Of a stretch of DNA of 64,000 bases, positions 380 to 7,669 are shown in pieces. Under the pieces are notes generated by a model. The model was not told the origin of the DNA and made no database searches. It saw only the letters and a program-made list of their open reading frames with translations. Where the stretch lies: assembly GCA_951406725.2 (NCBI GenBank), contig OX597817.1, forward strand, positions 76,136,001-76,200,000. Direction: 5' to 3'. Made by a program: the position numbers and the translations under genes. How positions within the stretch are numbered: position 1 is the stretch's first letter; the number at the start of each line of letters is the position of its first letter. This stretch comes from Octopus vulgaris. Lineage: Eukaryota.

Positions 380-2395
380 AAGATCAAATTAACTAAATGT
401 GAACACGCAAAGTGTAATGTGAATGCTCAACCAACTCATGTTCTTTTTTAAATCGTAGATATAGGTATCAAATGACATGGCTTCAACGAGAGGATGCAAA
501 AATGATCTCAACTTATTTTGCTATACATACGGCAAGTTCACACCAAAAGCCAACGGGAAACCGATATCTGGCTTTTAAAAGAAAGCCTATCGTGCTTACT
601 TTCACGTCGAGCTTGGTGATCAGGACAATTCATGGGCTCCTCACATTGTTTGCAAGACATGTTTGGAACACACGAGACAGTGGACTTCAGGTACCCAAAA
701 ATCGCTGAGATTCGCTATTCATATGATCCAAAGAACCACTCTGACATATGTTACTTCTGCTCAGTCAGTAATAGGGGACTGAACCAAAAGAAACGCAAAT
801 CTATCGAAACAGCGAAAACGATCCTGACTATATTCTCGAAACCGTGCCACAGCTGTTTAACCAAAATGAGCTGAATAATTTGGTTCGGGACTTAAATCTG
901 AGCAAAGAATCAGCAGAAATTTTGGCCTCAACGAAAAACACCTGTTAGCAAAAGGCACAAAGGTAACATTCTATCAAAATAGGGATGCGGAATTTGTACC
1001 ATTCTTTAATGAGAACATGGATCTTGTTCATTGTAATAACGTTAAGAGCGTTCTACTTCGACTAGGTGTCCACAAATACGATCCTGATGAATGGAGGATG
1101 TTCATTGATAGTTCAAAGTGTAGTTTGAAAAGTGTTTTGCTCCATAATACCAACATGTATTCACCAATACCTATAGGTCATTCAACAACACTGAAAGAAA
1201 AACATGATGCCATCAAACAGGTTATGGAACAGATTGACTACACCAAACATAAATGAGTGTTATGTGTCGATTTGAAAATGGTAAATTTCCTACTTGGTCA
1301 ACAAAGTGGCTACACGAAATTGCCATGTTTGTTTTGTGTATGTGGGACAGTTGAGCGAAAGAAGAGCATTGGAAATGGAAAGATTGGCCATCCTCCCGAG
1401 AGTTGAAGGACAGTGAATAGAACGTTATTAGCACAGTGCTAGTTCCGAAAGAAAAAATCATCTTCCCTCCCTTGCATATGAAATTGAGATTAATGAAGCA
1501 GTATGTAAAATCACTCGACAAAGAATGTAAATGTTTTGAGCATATATGTAAATCATTTCCAGGACTTAGCACCGAAAACCTCAAAGCAGGTGTGTTTGAT
1601 GGTTCTGAAATCAGGAAACTCATTAAGAATGATGAGTTTGTAAATTCAATGAATGACTTGGAATTACACACTTGGACATCGTTTGTTGACGTGGTGAAAA
1701 CTTCTTAGGCAATCACCGGGCCGAAAACTACAAGGAGTTAATGGAAAAGCTGTTGAAAAGACTACAGAAAAAAATATGAGTATTAAGGTTCATTTTTTAC
1801 ATAGCTATCAAGATAAATTTTCGGATTATTGCGGGGATGTGAGTGATGACCAAGGAGAACGATTCCATCAGGATATCAAAACAATGGAAGAGTGCTACCA
1901 GGGACGGTGAGACAAACGAATGATAGCTGAGTACTGCTGGAGTATCAAAAGGGACTTACATAACATTGAACATGACAGACAATCAAGAAAGAGAAAATTT
2001 TTACCATAGTTCTTATGTTCACGAAGGTTTTATTTCTGCTGTCAGTTTATTTAATGATTTGATGAAAATACTTGTTGGTCTTGGTATATTCAGTCGTGTC
2101 ATTTTTAAAGACTTAGGGTCTGATTGTTTATTCAAAAAGAGTATTTCTCAATAAGCAGACCAATATTTGTTGGTTTATATACGAATTGAGAGGTTTCTAC
2201 GATTTTACTTTGAGAAATATTGCCATGGATCAATAACAAATGCTTTTCATTCCAAAAATGAGGCATTTCTGTACAGCAAAAACGGTAGCTAACCAAGAAA
2301 AGTGAGGTCATTTTCAAATTTAGCGCCCTCAAAATAGCTAAAAAGATGTTAGGTGTCTCGACACCATTTCAAAAAAAAATTTTGGTTGACCAGTG
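380..2395 (+). mobile_element. Decayed DDE-type DNA transposon (poorly classified family) with frameshifted transposase; right terminus present
   Basis: Successive frames give NHSDICYFC, WRMFIDSSKCSLKSVLLHN, LGQQSGYTK, PPLHMKLRLMKQYVKSL, KAGVFDGSEIRKL, MSIKVHFLHS and VSDDQGERFHQDIKTMEECYQGR, a motif series typical of a widespread invertebrate transposase. Ends TTGACCAGTG followed by TA. Confidence 0.8.
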
Positions 2396-4191
2396 TAATT
2401 CTTCCTGCAGTAGGCTGTGTAGTACTTGACAGAAAAACACACAATTACCCACAAGCAAATGGAATAGATTGGTTGGAAATGAGATGGTAGATTTTAATTG
2501 GAAACGACCGACAATGTGACTTATTGATAGTCATTACAAACTCTATCAAAATGGAAACAGTAATCGTGTAAAAATATATAGTAAAGTAGTAGCACACCAC
2601 CTCCATTTGACTCTTGGTGCAATGAACTGTTTTGAATAATGTGCACTTTCTGTAGTAATTATGCTTTCAATTAAACGTTTATTTAAATGAAGGTTTCGAA
2701 TTCATTTCCAATTTATTGTCCATTAGACTCATTTAAGTTTTGTAATAGCATTAGAACACATCCCTTCACCGAGGCCAAATTAGTTTGAGGCACTCCATCA
2801 AAGTTTCAGTTGTTTAGAAACTCCAATAGATAATTGCTCAGACAAATTATAATCAGCACAAAAATCAAGGATTTTGTGATCGACTTCCCTCAAATATATT
2901 AATGATTTCAGCTTCGTATAATTTTGCAAAATTCTTGATGTGACCGTGTGTGTTGAAACAGATTTTGTTGCCTCGGGAATTATACCAATAATAATCACAA
3001 TCACTGGTTACATTTTGCTTATTCACTACTCGTCAGTTGGTTAGATAACTAACTAACCAACCGACTGTTGATTAATCATTCAGTTAATAAATCACTCAGC
3101 ACAACTGATCAATTGATAAACCGAATGATTAGTAAAACAAGCAATTGGTTGTGTGACTAAATAGCTAACCAATTGATAAAAAATTAAGAAGTGAAATTTA
3201 ACCACTACGTGTGCTTATTATTGACAAAATACTCTTCCTGAGATACAACGAAATATTCATTATTTTCTTATTTACCGATTTATCACATCATCATTGGTGA
3301 GGAAAGGTATCGTTCAGATTGTGAAGTATGCAAATTACTATAAGCTGCAAAAACTTAATTCACCGTATCACGTACATTCAGTAAAACCTTAAGTTTAGAT
3401 TTGGTTTGAGTTTCCAGCTCTTTCTTCTCTTCACCACCACCACAAAGTAAAAAAAACACTCCAGTGACTAATGTTCTCTTCTCAAATAAATATCATGTCT
3501 TTCTCAAAATGAACAAGAGACGCAACTATCTTCATGGTAGCAGTTTATTTCATTTTCTTTAAGAAATAATTGTAAAAAAGTCGCCTGGAAACATCATTCT
3601 TTTGCCATCAAACGGTAAAGCATTTTGCAAAAGCCACAAACTGTGCGATCATCAGCTTCAGGCACACACATACACACACATATACACACACACACAAACA
3701 CAAACACACATGCATACACACAAACGGATATAGACACGCATATAACCCACATTTTGCCCAAATTATTTAATTATCGTCGTCTTTTATGTGTAAAAGAGAC
3801 TCGCACCCGAAATATTATAGAATCATTAAACAATCTATGTAAAGGAATTAAATATCTTTTTGCTTTCATTTATTAAGATCGCATTATATATTTTTCCTAA
3901 CTTATAACTTGTATTATTCACAGGATTCTTCAAACACACACATACATACTGTCATCTGAAATTCGTTAGATGAAGAGATACGCACACTTCATTGTGTGCT
4001 TCGATGGTTCAATTAAAACACCAGCTCCATCACATATTTACAAAGGTTGGAAACTCTTTTAACTCAAGAAGTCGTGACACTTTGCTAACGACTGGTTTGA
4101 ACTTTCTAAAAAAGTTAAACAAAGCTCAATGATAAACATACATAAATACAGGCATACAGGCGTACCCCAACACTACTTACATACACACACA

Positions 4192-4581
4192 TCTTTTATC
4201 TTTAATCTTTTGCCTTGATTCAGTCATTAGACTGCTGCCATGCTGGGGCACCACCTTGAATTTAAATCGAACGAATCGATCCCGGTATTTATCGTTTTTG
4301 TAAAGCCTGGTACTTATGCAATATCACCCTTTTGCCGAACCGCTAAGTTATGAGGATATAAACACACCAATACCGGTTGTTAAGCGGTGGTGACAGAAAA
4401 CACATACACAACGACACACACACACACACGAATAGATATATAAATATGACGCTCTGTTTCCAATTTCCATCTACCAAATAAATCTACAAAACTTGGGTAG
4501 CCAAAGTGTCACGCAGTGGGACTGAACACGGAACCATATAACTGGGAAGCAAGCTTCTTACAACAGAACTACGCTGGCGCA
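4192..4581 (-). mobile_element. tRNA-derived SINE family A, diverged copy
   Basis: Reverse complement matches the copies at 26490 and 55996 (GGTTCCGGGTTCAGTCCCACTGCGTG head, GTAACTTAGCGGTTCGGCAAAA body, CAGCATGGC..CAGTC..ATGACTGAA tail). Confidence 0.85.
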
Positions 4582-4867
4582 CATCATCTCAATATTTTAA
4601 ACCACAATCACTAATTGTTTTTACCAGTTAATTGCTAGCATCAATACTTCAAGAATAATCGCTGTGGGAGAAAATTGTAGGACACACATTTGAATGAGCT
4701 GTAATGCCAATAAATTTTGCTGGACAATGGAAGCAGTTCCAGTAATCTTGGTAATCTGAATCCATTTTGATTCAGGCTTTGTCGTTGGTTATTGCAAATG
4801 TCTGGAAATGATTCAAAATTTCTGATGTATACAATATAGTTAACCAAGTGTTGCGTTTATGATAAGA

Positions 4868-6029
4868 CTAGCAGCATAGCCCGGCGTTGCCCGGGTATGT
4901 AAGAGCCCCTAGTAGGCAACGACTAATCCCAATCTAGTCCTTTCCCTCTAGGGAACGAAGGCGCATGTGTAGGTTGAAGTGTCTTCTCTTCACTCCCAAA
5001 TAACTATCAAACAGCTATCGATAATTCAACCCAACCAATTCCTACCAGGAAGAAATTACATTTGAGACTTTACCCCCAACACCACCACTTCTGCTAATAG
5101 CTGCTGCAGCCGCAAGTTATTCGAATACTTTTTTTGTTTAAACTTTCTTTATAACTACCACCCCAAACGTTTTACCTTAAATTTTTGACGTACCCTAAGG
5201 GTCCTCGAACGCTACTTGCAAACTCTTGGTTTATTATAAACCGCTTTTGTCGTGTGCACCAAAATACTTTTTCCATTCGTTTGTTCAGTTTGGTCACTTT
5301 TGACTTTTTCGTTGTTGTCACTCACATTGCTGCCCGCTTTTTTGCCAATTTTGTACATTTTTATACATTTTGGGATACTTACCCCACGTGTTCCGAGAGT
5401 TAAAAAGGTCGAGTTGCGTCCCTTAGACAGTCTGTGGTTTGTGTTTAATACACAAATCGGTTTGCTATGTGTGCCACATATGATTTAATTAACCGATTTT
5501 TTCCAGTAATAAAGTTTCCTATTGGAATAAAAAGGGTCATATAGCTCATTGGAGCAGACATGATGCTCACTGTGAATTTTTAAAAAAATTCCTGCCAATT
5601 TGTGAAAAATATTGTCGAAAATATGTCATCGTGAATTTGAACGCGATTTCCCAAAATGGCATGATTTTATCGATTTTTTCTGATGGTAAGGTATTGCATG
5701 GAAGACTAACGTCAGAAATAAGTTTCTTAGGGTAACATTAAGCTTCACCATGAGTTTGGTGAAAATCGATTGCAAGTTGCGAAAACTACAACAGAAAATG
5801 TGTTGCATATAAAAAGCTTAGATTCTCGACCCCATGTCGAATTTATCGATTTTTTCAGAATGGGGGAACTTTTCAAAATTTTTGCTGCGTTAGTTTTGAA
5901 TTATGACATTGGGCTATGTGTGTGTCAAGTTTCATCAGAATCGGTTGAAAGCCGTGGTCAGGGTGAGGGTACAACCTGACAGACACACAGACACACAGAC
6001 AGACAAACTGCCGTTTATATATAGAGAGA
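4868..6029 (-). mobile_element. Non-autonomous Helitron
   Basis: Minus strand begins A|TCTCTCTATATATAA followed by a (GTCT/GTGT) microsatellite, and ends with hairpin CCCGGGCAACGCCGGG then CTAG|T. These are Helitron TC...CTRR ends in an AT target. Confidence 0.85.
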
Positions 6030-6385
6030 TGTCCTTTTCATTACAAATATGTAGCACCAATAAAACTCATCATCTTTAGGCTCTTGTGCGAAAAGACAAG
6101 CGATGATTTTGAAAGATTTCTAATCGATCTTAGGATTCCCACAGCGACAATTTTGAACTAAATTTACCTTGAACATAAGCTTCAGAACAGATAGCAAATT
6201 CACAGGTATCATTCATGCCACTGTCAGGTGACTCAACATTAAGACTGCTTTCAAATGTTTGGCATTGGCTACTCATTAGAGGCAGTTCTCAGACCTTGAT
6301 CTAAGCATGATCAAGATTGAGATACTTAAATCATATGTTGATGATAGCTTTCAGAATCTTAGGGGGTGATCTTGTAGCTGCATTA

Positions 6386-6491
<106 letters not shown>

Positions 6492-6546
6492 CATACATAC
6501 ATACATATATGTATAAATAAATAGATATATATATATGTATATATAT

Positions 6547-7116
6547 ATAATAGAAATATTAAAATAACTAAGTCTCTCTAAAAGAGAACAGCGGCAGCGT
6601 TCCCGGAAAATAATAGTTATCGCCATACTAATATGGCATTCTTATAAAAATAAGAAAAAAGCTGTCCGCTTAGTAGCTCCATGAGGCCATCGCCTTAAGT
6701 TAGCTATTTGATACACAAACTGTATCCATATAACCTTCGAACAAGGGAGGTCAGTCGCTCCACACTACTTGACCGGCAGCTACAGACGCGTTTCGGGGTA
6801 TTGCCCCTTTTCAATGCAGCGTAGCCAGCCAGTAGGTGTCGCTTCCGACAATCTCTGTTCGATGGTTTTATTTACCTAGTTTCGGTGGAATACATCCACT
6901 TGTTTTCAATAATAGAAATATTAAAATAACTAAGTCTCTCTAAAAGAGAACAGCGGCAGCGTAGTAGTGTGGAGCGACTGACCTCCCTTGTTCGAAGGTT
7001 ATATGGATACAGTTTGTGTATCAAATAGCTAACTTAAGGCGATGGCCTCATGGAGCTAAGCGGACAGCTTTTTTCTTATTTTTATAAGAATGCCATATTA
7101 GTATGGCGATAACTAT

Positions 7117-7118
<2 letters not shown>
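6547..7118 (-). mobile_element. Short PLE-derived / retrozyme-like element in (TA)n: 362-bp unit plus 54-bp repeat plus 156-bp inverted segment
   Basis: 6547-6600 is directly repeated at 6909-6962; 6963-7118 is the reverse complement of 6611-6769; HHR motif inside; TA tracts on both sides. Confidence 0.8.
6779..6820 (-). ncRNA. Minimal type I hammerhead ribozyme, U3-A8 core variant
   Basis: GCUGCA UUGAAAA GGGG caaua CCCC GAAA CGCG UC/ UGUAGC: stems I and II pair, stem III is palindromic. Confidence 0.75.
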
Positions 7119-7200
<82 letters not shown>

Positions 7201-7202
<2 letters not shown>

Positions 7203-7348
7203 AACTAAATGTAGCGGTTCTACAGAGGACAGTGTTACTGTTCTTTTAGCCCCAGGAAAACATCTTTTCCAGCTGGCCAACGACACACTGTCTTGGGGTT
7301 AAAAGCAGCAGTAACACTGTTTTCTCTAGGACCGCCAACTTTTAGTTG
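7201..7348. repeat. Imperfect inverted repeat (about 57-bp arms) made of a PLE-like 3' end fragment
   Basis: 7202-7257 pairs with 7291-7348; the sequence resembles the terminal part of the 35-kb HHR element. Confidence 0.75.
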
Positions 7349-7480
7349 CCAAATATATTTTACGATTCCGCACTGTTACTGTTTATCTCTCGCTCAGAGA
7401 TTTAATATAACTTATCTTTTTCTCTCTCTCTTTTTCTGTCTGTCTCTCTCTCTTTCTCTCTCTCACTCTCTCTCTCTCTC

Positions 7481-7525
<45 letters not shown>

Positions 7526-7669
7526 GCACACACAAATATCAGTTATAGACAGAAAGATAGAGGGAGTGAGTTCGCACGAGAGTTTGTATGTGTGTGTGGG
7601 AGTAAGAGACAGAGAGAGAGAGAGGTGGGAGAGTGGGAGGAGAAAGGGAGAGAAAGGAAGAATCTAGGC

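What the first reader, a model, noticed from the sequence alone, without database searches (positions are those of the whole stretch)
6547..7118. Over-unit-length 362-nt element with a compensatory U3-A8 hammerhead and a 5' inversion
Seen: the terminal 54 bp recur exactly 362 bp away, so the insert is about 1.15 units of a circularly permutable monomer. A 156-bp inverted copy follows. The core reads UUGAAAA instead of CUGANGA, changing both partners of the 3-8 tertiary pair. Known: the C3-G8 pair can be replaced by U3-A8 in natural hammerheads. Inference: the double change suggests selected activity, and the over-length copy is what reverse transcription around a circular or multimeric RNA would leave.
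Basis: partly seen in the sequence, partly recalled or inferred. Interest (0 to 1): 0.75.

Follow-up and report, generated by a model that had tools for sequence, protein, structure and literature searches.

The report
Penelope-dependent hammerhead retrozyme insertion
This is one copy of a 362-base non-coding repeat, found at more than a thousand places in this genome, that carries a variant (U3-A8) hammerhead ribozyme motif and sits as two inverted arms inside a TA microsatellite; it was likely copied in by the enzyme of a young Penelope-like retroelement, so it is a new member of a known kind of element.

Summary
Window 6547-7119 holds 416 nt (1.15 units of a 362-nt monomer) followed by a 157-nt inverted arm, flanked by (TA)n. 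The minus strand carries a minimal hammerhead: UUGAAAA core, 4-bp helix II, palindromic helix III ACGCGU, cleavage predicted at 6785/6784.

The variant is not private decay. Of 1354 family hammerheads in the genome, 1348 are U3-A8 and none is C3-G8. Subfamilies 15-20% apart keep the core. Only the free position N7 varies, and helices I and III change by compensatory pairs.

Of 56 insertions examined, 41 have two arms with the RNA-sense 3' ends outward; none has the reverse layout. Outer ends fall at two CUAUUAU boxes 63 nt apart, one of each in 31 of 32 cases. Of 95 arms, 53 exceed one unit, and 45 of 56 insertions abut (TA)n.

These are Penelope-like (PLE) insertion hallmarks. The genome holds a young PLE (781-aa RT/GIY-YIG ORF) that also lies in (TA)n. 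Its hammerhead is also U3-A8 (0 C3-G8 among 1478).

Verdict: an animal non-LTR retrozyme, likely PLE-mobilised. U3-A8 in PLE hammerheads was published in 2014. Self-cleavage, circular RNA and expression are untested; no RNA data were usable.

The parts
6547..6962 (-). Arm 1, 416 nt: one full 362-nt unit (6547-6908) plus the first 54 nt of the next. The RNA sense is the minus strand. The outer end at 6547 is the 'A box' end (ATAATAG on +, CUAUUAU-3' in the RNA sense).
6963..7119 (+). Arm 2, 157 nt, inverted: the reverse complement of unit positions 64-223 with one 3-nt deletion. The RNA sense is the + strand. The outer end at 7119 is the 'B box' end (CTATTAT at 7113-7119). It joins arm 1 directly at 6962/6963.
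6779..6820 (-). Minimal type I hammerhead motif: helix I GCUGCA/UGUAGC, core UUGAAAA (U3 = 6814, A8 = 6809), helix II GGGG/CCCC with loop CAAUA, then GAAAC-GC-GUC. The predicted cut is between 6785 and 6784. Helix III ACGCGU is palindromic and can form only between two copies.
6746..6853 (-). Approximate limits of the predicted long rod that extends helix I: about 27 pairs beyond the core helices, with compensatory changes between subfamilies.
6610..6616 (-). Internal B box (ATAATAG on +) inside arm 1. In other insertions this is the second preferred 3' end. It lies in a predicted 23-nt single-stranded stretch.
6873..6909 (-). Second hammerhead-like motif: UUGAAAAC-AAGUGGAUGUAUUCCACC-GAAAC-UAGGUA. 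It is conserved among subfamilies, but no canonical pair closes helix II, so its function is unknown.
6525..6546 (.). Left flank: an imperfect (TA)n run, the target microsatellite.
7120..7200 (.). Right flank: a (TA)n run, the target microsatellite.

Best explanation
The insert at 6547-7119 is one copy of a 362-nt non-coding repeat family with a U3-A8 hammerhead motif on its minus strand, and it was likely installed by target-primed reverse transcription from both 3' ends of a break in a (TA)n microsatellite, using the enzyme of a Penelope-like element (PLE). Shown directly: the family is dispersed at more than a thousand sites. Insertions consist of one or two arms whose RNA-sense 3' ends point outward. 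Outer ends lie at two CUAUUAU boxes 63 nt apart. Most arms are longer than one unit. Most targets are (TA)n, and 6-8-bp target duplications appear where the target is not pure TA. Subfamilies keep the hammerhead core and helices through compensatory change. A young PLE with an RT/GIY-YIG ORF, a U3-A8 hammerhead and (TA)n flanks is present in the same genome. Inferred: the hammerhead-sense RNA is transcribed as a multimer. Two hammerheads pair through the palindromic helix III and are predicted to cut after GUC. The monomer may then be ligated into a circle. The PLE enzyme would nick (TA)n, and each TA-rich 3' end would anneal to one AUUAU box. Reverse transcription would run round the multimeric or circular template, and the two cDNAs would be joined at a variable inner point. 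In the window copy this gives U1-362 plus U1-54, joined to inverted U223-64.
For: 1. Copies and tandem arrays. The unit search gave 156 matches at 99-100% identity from only 40 scored candidates of 1121, with arrays of up to about 5.5 units.
2. Architecture. Of 56 distinct insertions, 40 are '+-', 1 is '+-+-', 15 are single-arm and 0 are '-+'.
3. End rule. Of the 40 two-arm insertions, 31 are A+B, 1 is A+A, 0 are B+B and 8 have one odd end. If ends were chosen independently, at most 1 non-A+B case among 32 has p of about 8e-9 (my arithmetic).
4. Arm length. 53 of 95 arms exceed 362 nt.
5. Target. A (TA)n run of at least 10 nt abuts 45 of 56 insertions, against 9 of 112 control sites. Target duplications are AAAGATAA, AAATATAT and TCTGTA.
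6. Hammerhead constraint. The pattern with Y at position 3 and R at position 8 gave 1354 hits and 0 in the reversed control. Four are C3-A8, two of which are arm-junction artefacts; two are U3-G8; none is C3-G8. N7 is A, C, U or G by subfamily. Helix III is ACGCGU or ACAUGU, both palindromes.
7. Covariation. On 26 distinct segments, 96.3% of cells pair, against at most 48% when the partners are slid. Four pairs change on both sides.
8. Folding. The monomer folds at -125.4 kcal/mol, z = -6.65. Two hammerhead segments cofold with an intermolecular ACGCGU helix.
9. Partner. The PF01541 search gave 6136 first-look candidates, and at least 16 listed matches lie in a 781-aa open frame. Copies are about 98% alike, with a 456-nt pseudo-LTR. 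The ORF matches RVT_1 and GIY-YIG. The pseudo-LTR carries UUGAUAA-GGUU..AACU-GAAAC-AU-GUU and the element is flanked by (TA)n. There are 1478 such motifs and 0 with C3-G8.
10. Literature (passages read). Tandem plus inverted 5'-truncated copies, a tail at one end only and microsatellite bias are PLE hallmarks (PMC8557442). U3-A8 occurs in PLE hammerheads (PMC4209133).
Against: No hammerhead family of Rfam matches, even at E<=10. No run on record as RNA holds the element, and only contigs could be laid, so transcription, cleavage ends and circles are unseen. There is no sequence similarity between the unit and the PLE outside the roughly 20 shared hammerhead bases (blastn, nhmmer), and the 3' ends differ, so the partner assignment is circumstantial. 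PLE minimal hammerheads cut poorly in vitro (PMC4209133). Naiad PLEs spread without hammerheads (PMC8557442), so cleavage may not be needed for mobility. Inner ends do not pile up at the predicted cut: 28 of 95 lie in U190-238 and 12 in U239-287, a broad excess only. The 56 insertions are a sample chosen by similarity or by motif, not a census.
Confidence: 0.8

Rival explanations
1. The element and its mode of insertion are as above, but the hammerhead motif no longer cuts. It would be kept as a folded handle that the PLE enzyme recognises, or as part of the stable rod. Templates would be plain read-through multimeric transcripts, never circles.
For: PLE minimal hammerheads show low activity in vitro (PMC4209133). 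Naiads thrive without hammerheads (PMC8557442). Insertion ends lie 124-175 nt from the predicted cut, not at it. Genomic arrays of up to 5.5 units could supply multimeric transcripts. No Rfam match.
Against: The conservation pattern is the catalytic one. N7 is the only free core base, C17 is kept, 3-8 is kept as a pair, and the helix III palindrome is kept through a double change. A mere protein handle would not need exactly these constraints.
Confidence: 0.15
2. It is a satellite or minisatellite. Tandem units and inversions would arise at the DNA level by unequal crossing-over, replication slippage or fold-back, with the hammerhead a passive relic.
For: Tandem head-to-tail units are seen. 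A 2026 preprint discusses local amplification of retrozyme arrays (10.64898/2026.07.22.740005, Discussion passage).
Against: There are hundreds of dispersed short insertions on all large contigs with the same two end boxes. There are target duplications and a (TA)n preference. No '-+' layout occurs in 56 insertions. Identity between loci is 99-100%.
Confidence: 0.03
3. The element is mobilised by a reverse transcriptase other than the 781-aa PLE, for example a LINE or another PLE family.
For: The unit and the PLE share no 3'-end or body similarity. GIY-YIG hits L078-L083 look like other PLE families, and no hammerhead was found within their 1.5-kb flanks.
Against: The two-arm layout with a tail at one end and the microsatellite bias are PLE traits, not LINE traits (PMC8557442). 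The oldest unit subfamily shares U3, U7, A8 and the helix III ACAUGU with the PLE hammerhead.
Confidence: 0.1

Closest known systems
Animal non-LTR retrozymes (Cervera & de la Pena 2020, PMC7229834; passages read)
   Same: Short (170-400 nt) non-coding, low-GC tandem repeats. Each unit has a type I hammerhead, the units are strongly self-paired, and they co-exist with autonomous PLEs. PLEs are proposed as the mobilisers, through multimeric or circular RNA.
   Different: The hammerhead here is the PLE-type minimal form (2-bp helix III, palindromic) with a U3-A8 core, not the classical CUGANGA. Here the genomic footprints tie the family to PLE-style integration: two inverted arms, two fixed end boxes and (TA)n targets. 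In the passages I searched for 'inverted', 'microsatellite' and 'TSD', such footprints were not described for retrozymes. Circular RNA is shown there and untested here.
Minimal hammerheads of Penelope-like elements, including the U3-A8 variant of Schistosoma mansoni Cercyon (Cervera & de la Pena 2014, PMC4209133; passages read)
   Same: A minimal type I hammerhead with a very short palindromic helix III, expected to act as a dimer. The natural U3-A8 covariation occurs in about 1300 S. mansoni motifs.
   Different: Those motifs sit in pseudo-LTRs of ORF-bearing PLEs or as scattered single motifs of high heterogeneity. Here the motif is in an ORF-less 362-nt tandem unit that is nearly uniform (99-100%).
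PLE insertion architecture (Craig et al. 2021, PMC8557442; passages read)
   Same: Partial tandems, an inverted 5'-truncated copy at the 5' end, an extension ('tail') at only one end, and a bias for microsatellites including (TA)n.
   Different: The tail here is 63 nt rather than 30-40 bp, and it is bounded by two copies of the same heptamer. (TA)n bias was reported there for Naiads, which have an N-terminal endonuclease and no hammerhead. The candidate partner here has a C-terminal GIY-YIG domain and a hammerhead.

Membership tests
Hammerhead ribozyme (type I, minimal/dimeric PLE type) | Conserved core: CUGANGA ... GAAA ... UH, cut after H17 | tested here: inconclusive
   All core bases are present except C3 and G8, which are U and A. 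This is the isosteric pair reported in natural PLE hammerheads (PMC4209133). U3-A8 occurs in 1348 of 1354 family motifs. H17 is C.
Hammerhead ribozyme (type I, minimal/dimeric PLE type) | Match to a curated covariance model (Rfam hammerhead families) | tested here: not met
   No hammerhead family matched at gathering score or at E<=10 over 6300-7400. RF00163 does find 6 canonical hammerheads elsewhere in the genome.
Hammerhead ribozyme (type I, minimal/dimeric PLE type) | Helices I and II supported by covariation | tested here: met
   proximal helix I is 98.7% paired, with AU, GU and GC types at one pair. The extended helix I has two pairs that switch AU/GC (13:13 and 15:11). Helix II is 100% paired (GC or GU). 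Slid controls pair at 48% or less. Caveat: these are few independent events among related copies.
Hammerhead ribozyme (type I, minimal/dimeric PLE type) | Helix III, here formed between two copies through a palindrome | tested here: met
   ACGCGU and ACAUGU are both palindromes, and the central pair changes on both sides (GC 22, AU 3, GU 1). The cofold of two segments forms the 6-bp intermolecular helix.
Hammerhead ribozyme (type I, minimal/dimeric PLE type) | Site-specific self-cleavage | not testable with these tools
   Only contigs were available, with no raw RNA reads.
Animal non-LTR retrozyme | Non-coding tandem units of about 170-400 nt, each with a hammerhead, and low GC | tested here: met
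   The unit is 362 nt, in arrays of up to about 5.5 units. GC is 42%, and no stop-free stretch exceeds 55 aa in a trimer.
Animal non-LTR retrozyme | Expressed as linear and circular RNA of unit length | not testable with these tools
   No listed run is on record as RNA. Contigs that 'go back 362' occur in 8 of 8 runs, but they cannot tell tandem DNA from circles.
Animal non-LTR retrozyme | Co-existence with autonomous PLEs that carry hammerheads | tested here: met
PLE-mobilised insertion | Partial tandem plus an inverted 5'-truncated copy | tested here: met
   41 of 56 insertions have it, and none has the reverse layout. The window copy shows it.
PLE-mobilised insertion | Extension (tail) at one end only | tested here: met
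   31 of 32 insertions with two canonical ends combine one A end (with the 63-nt tail) and one B end.
PLE-mobilised insertion | Microsatellite target bias | tested here: met
   45 of 56 insertions against 9 of 112 control sites.
Autonomous Penelope-like element | Own RT plus GIY-YIG ORF | tested here: not met
   The unit has no ORF, and no PLE lies in the window. The element is non-autonomous.

The most novel reading that the evidence does not exclude
The near-absolute 'one A end, one B end' rule means that the two 3' ends of a single (TA)n break prime on one and the same template RNA. They would do so at two accessible CUAUUAU boxes 63 nt apart, perhaps held by a dimeric PLE enzyme. This would explain in one step the two unexplained PLE hallmarks, the one-sided 'tail' and the inverted 5' arm. 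It would also make this uniform 362-nt family a natural reporter for the PLE integration mechanism, with a U3-A8 hammerhead that works in vivo.
Probability: 0.3. Interest if true: 0.7.

Novelty: new member of a known kind. Interest (0 to 1): 0.45.

Why it matters
The kind of element is known, and the U3-A8 core has been in print since 2014. The value lies in the quality of this family as evidence.

- **The core.** It is young, uniform and abundant, and it has older subfamilies. Together they show the catalytic signature of a hammerhead with U3-A8: only N7 is free, and the helices and the dimer palindrome are kept by compensatory change.
- **The integration footprints.** The insertions carry the full set of PLE integration footprints. 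That is direct genomic support for the proposal that animal retrozymes are moved by PLEs.
- **The end rule.** The strict A/B pairing is a concrete, testable clue to how PLEs make tails and inverted arms. That mechanism is still described as unresolved in the PLE paper I read (PMC8557442).

Tried and rejected
- **Rfam.** Nothing at gathering score for the whole window, and no hammerhead at E<=10 over 6300-7400. The listed weak hits are AT-repeat or hairpin noise.
- **RNA evidence.** No RNA holder is listed. Both read-laying runs returned contigs only: no starts or ends, no strand information, and 'goes back 362' joints that cannot separate tandem DNA from circles.
- **Unit versus PLE similarity.** blastn of the unit against the PLE and an nhmmer profile of 33 units against 15 PLE or GIY-YIG loci found no shared sequence in PLE bodies. 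The one hit (L091 1796-1928, E = 6e-6) lies outside the PLE copy.
- **Snap-back model.** A simple fold-back origin of the inverted arm is rejected because the inner ends of the two arms differ (for example 54 and 223 in the window).
- **Run-off at the cut.** cDNA run-off exactly at the hammerhead cut is not seen; there is only a broad excess of inner ends in U181-240.
- **Second motif.** I did not accept the second UUGAAAA...GAAAC motif (6873-6909) as a ribozyme, because helix II lacks a canonical closing pair.
- **Earlier findings.** The look-up returned nothing for this genome.
- **Literature.** One paper search was rejected for term format and not repeated, so the biochemical rescue of C3/G8 double mutants is recalled, not read. 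Supplements of the cited papers were not opened. They may hold retrozyme or PLE families from this animal group.

Full report
**What is in the window.**
Positions 6547-6600 recur exactly at 6909-6962, 362 nt away. Positions 6963-7119 are the reverse complement of 6610-6769, apart from one 3-nt indel. I call the unit U (6547-6908, + strand). The layout is then U1-362, U1-54, and directly joined to it, inverted U223-64. Both flanks are (TA)n runs.

The hammerhead lies on the minus strand at 6820-6779. It consists of:
- helix I, GCUGCA/UGUAGC;
- the core UUGAAAA (+ strand TTTTCAA, 6808-6814);
- helix II, GGGG-CAAUA-CCCC;
- then GAAAC-GC-GUC, with the cut predicted between 6785 and 6784.

Helix III alone would be 2 bp with a 2-nt loop. 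However, ACGCGU is a palindrome, so two copies can form a 6-bp helix, and this appears in a cofold. No Rfam hammerhead model matches.

**The family.**
The own genome (2.8 Gb, 227 contigs) gave 1121 first-look candidates for U. The 40 that were scored yielded 156 matches, mostly 99-100% identical, often in tandem. A motif with Y at position 3 and R at position 8 found 1354 sites, against 0 for the reversed control.
- Four sites are C3-A8. Two of these are artefacts where an arm junction abuts the core.
- Two sites are U3-G8.
- None is C3-G8, which leaves 1348 U3-A8.

Subfamilies about 95%, 85% and 80% identical to U keep the roughly 362-nt length and the architecture. Across them N7 is A, C, U or G. 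Helix III is ACGCGU or ACAUGU.

For the covariation count I used 26 of the 36 distinct hammerhead segments. I dropped 10 whose 5' side is replaced or interrupted by an arm junction: L009:2065, L011:2407, L037, L044, L053, L069:1465, L070, L072, L075 and L076. On the 26 segments, 96.3% of cells pair, against at most 48% in slid controls. Four pairs change on both sides. These are few events among related copies, so this is support, not proof.

The sense monomer folds at -125.4 kcal/mol, z = -6.65 against dinucleotide-preserving shuffles. GC is 42%, and no frame stays open beyond 55 aa.

**How copies are inserted.**
I found 56 distinct insertions in the fetched loci. The loci had been chosen either by similarity to U or by the motif, so this is a sample.
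- Layout: 40 are '+-' in U orientation, 1 is '+-+-', 15 are single-arm and none is '-+'. The RNA-sense 3' ends therefore always point outward. That is what priming from the two 3' ends of a break would give.
- Outer ends: they fall at U1-10 (the A box) or U58-68 (the B box). Both begin ATAATAG, which is CUAUUAU-3' in the RNA.
- End rule: of the 40 two-arm insertions, 31 pair one A end with one B end, 1 is A+A, none is B+B, and 8 have one odd end.
- Inner ends: they are spread round the unit, with a roughly two-fold excess at U181-240. That is the 3' base of the rod holding the hammerhead, which suggests a reverse-transcriptase pause site (inference).
- Length: 53 of 95 arms exceed one unit, up to 2000 nt.
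- Target: (TA)n abuts 45 of 56 insertions, against 9 of 112 control sites. Where the target is not pure TA, duplications of 6-8 bp are visible.

**The likely partner.**
A GIY-YIG search gave 6136 first-look candidates, and at least 16 listed matches lie in an identical 781-aa open frame. Three fetched copies are about 98% alike. One of them (L090) has 456-nt pseudo-LTRs at 99.3% identity. Its ORF matches RVT_1 and GIY-YIG, and it is flanked by (TA)n on both sides. Its pseudo-LTR carries UUGAUAA-GGUU..AACU-GAAAC-AU-GUU, that is, U3-A8 with helix III ACAUGU. The genome holds 1478 such motifs. Of the first 100 listed, 98 are U3-A8, and the C3-G8 version has 0 hits. The oldest unit subfamily shares U3, U7, A8 and ACAUGU with it. 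Beyond the hammerhead there is no detectable similarity, so the link is circumstantial.

**Comparison with what is known.**
- Animal non-LTR retrozymes are tandem 170-400-nt hammerhead units expressed as circular RNAs, with PLEs proposed as the mobilisers (PMC7229834, passages; preprint 10.64898/2026.07.22.740005, abstract and passages).
- The U3-A8 covariation in PLE minimal hammerheads, their presumed dimeric action and their weak in vitro activity are published (PMC4209133, passages).
- Tandem/inverted insertions, a one-sided tail and microsatellite bias are PLE hallmarks whose mechanism is called unresolved (PMC8557442, passages).
- That C3/G8 double mutants retain activity in engineered ribozymes is recalled, not read here.

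**Verdict.**
The observation and the interpretation stand. The element is a new member of a known kind. Two points are new relative to the passages I read. First, a retrozyme carries the PLE-type U3-A8 minimal hammerhead. Second, its copies show a strict two-box end rule in (TA)n targets. Transcription, cleavage and circularisation remain untested.

Noticed in passing
L090 (G000:C16:20833500-20842500), element about 1430-6672: A young autonomous Penelope-like element. It has a 781-aa RT/GIY-YIG ORF (3245-5587), 456-nt pseudo-LTRs and a U3-A8 hammerhead at about 1779 and 6566, and it is inserted in (TA)n. Many intact copies exist genome-wide.
   Followed up: partly
window 7201-7345: An imperfect palindrome of about 145 nt with arms of about 55 nt, MITE-like, immediately right of the (TA)n run. 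It accounts for the weak miRNA-precursor-like Rfam hits.
   Followed up: no
window 6873-6909 (minus strand): A second hammerhead-like string, UUGAAAAC...GAAAC-UAGGUA, spans the unit junction next to the A box. It is strongly conserved among subfamilies but lacks a canonical helix II closing pair.
   Followed up: partly
L009 (G000:C22:33390514-33393875), insertion 1501-2384: This is the only A+A insertion, and its flanks beyond the (TA)n are inverted duplicates of each other. It could be a fold-back event or an insertion in a pre-existing palindrome.
   Followed up: no
window 6673: The window copy has a private G. Every other genomic copy, and every contig laid from the 8 runs, has T.
   Followed up: yes
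runs X1-X20: Runs under seven coded organism labels hold 83-97% of the unit's sampled 31-mers. Near-identical copies therefore exist beyond the assembled individual. How the labels relate is unknown.
   Followed up: partly
L031-L036: Six canonical (C3-G8) type I hammerheads above the RF00163 cut-off lie elsewhere in the genome. Three have a large helix II insertion and a palindromic helix III (ACGAUCGU), suggesting other retrozyme or PLE families.
   Followed up: no
one search hit list: The nearest relatives of the PLE protein (58% identity or less) are mostly unnamed. The few named ones are filed under bivalve gill-symbiont MAGs, which probably reflects host DNA in those bins.
   Followed up: no
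L091 1796-1928: A weak match (nhmmer E = 6e-6) to unit profile positions 110-240, upstream of a PLE copy. It may be an older retrozyme relative.
   Followed up: no
window 6388-6491: A long (TCTA)n microsatellite directly left of the TA-rich target. The whole neighbourhood (6380-7530) is a patchwork of microsatellites.
   Followed up: no
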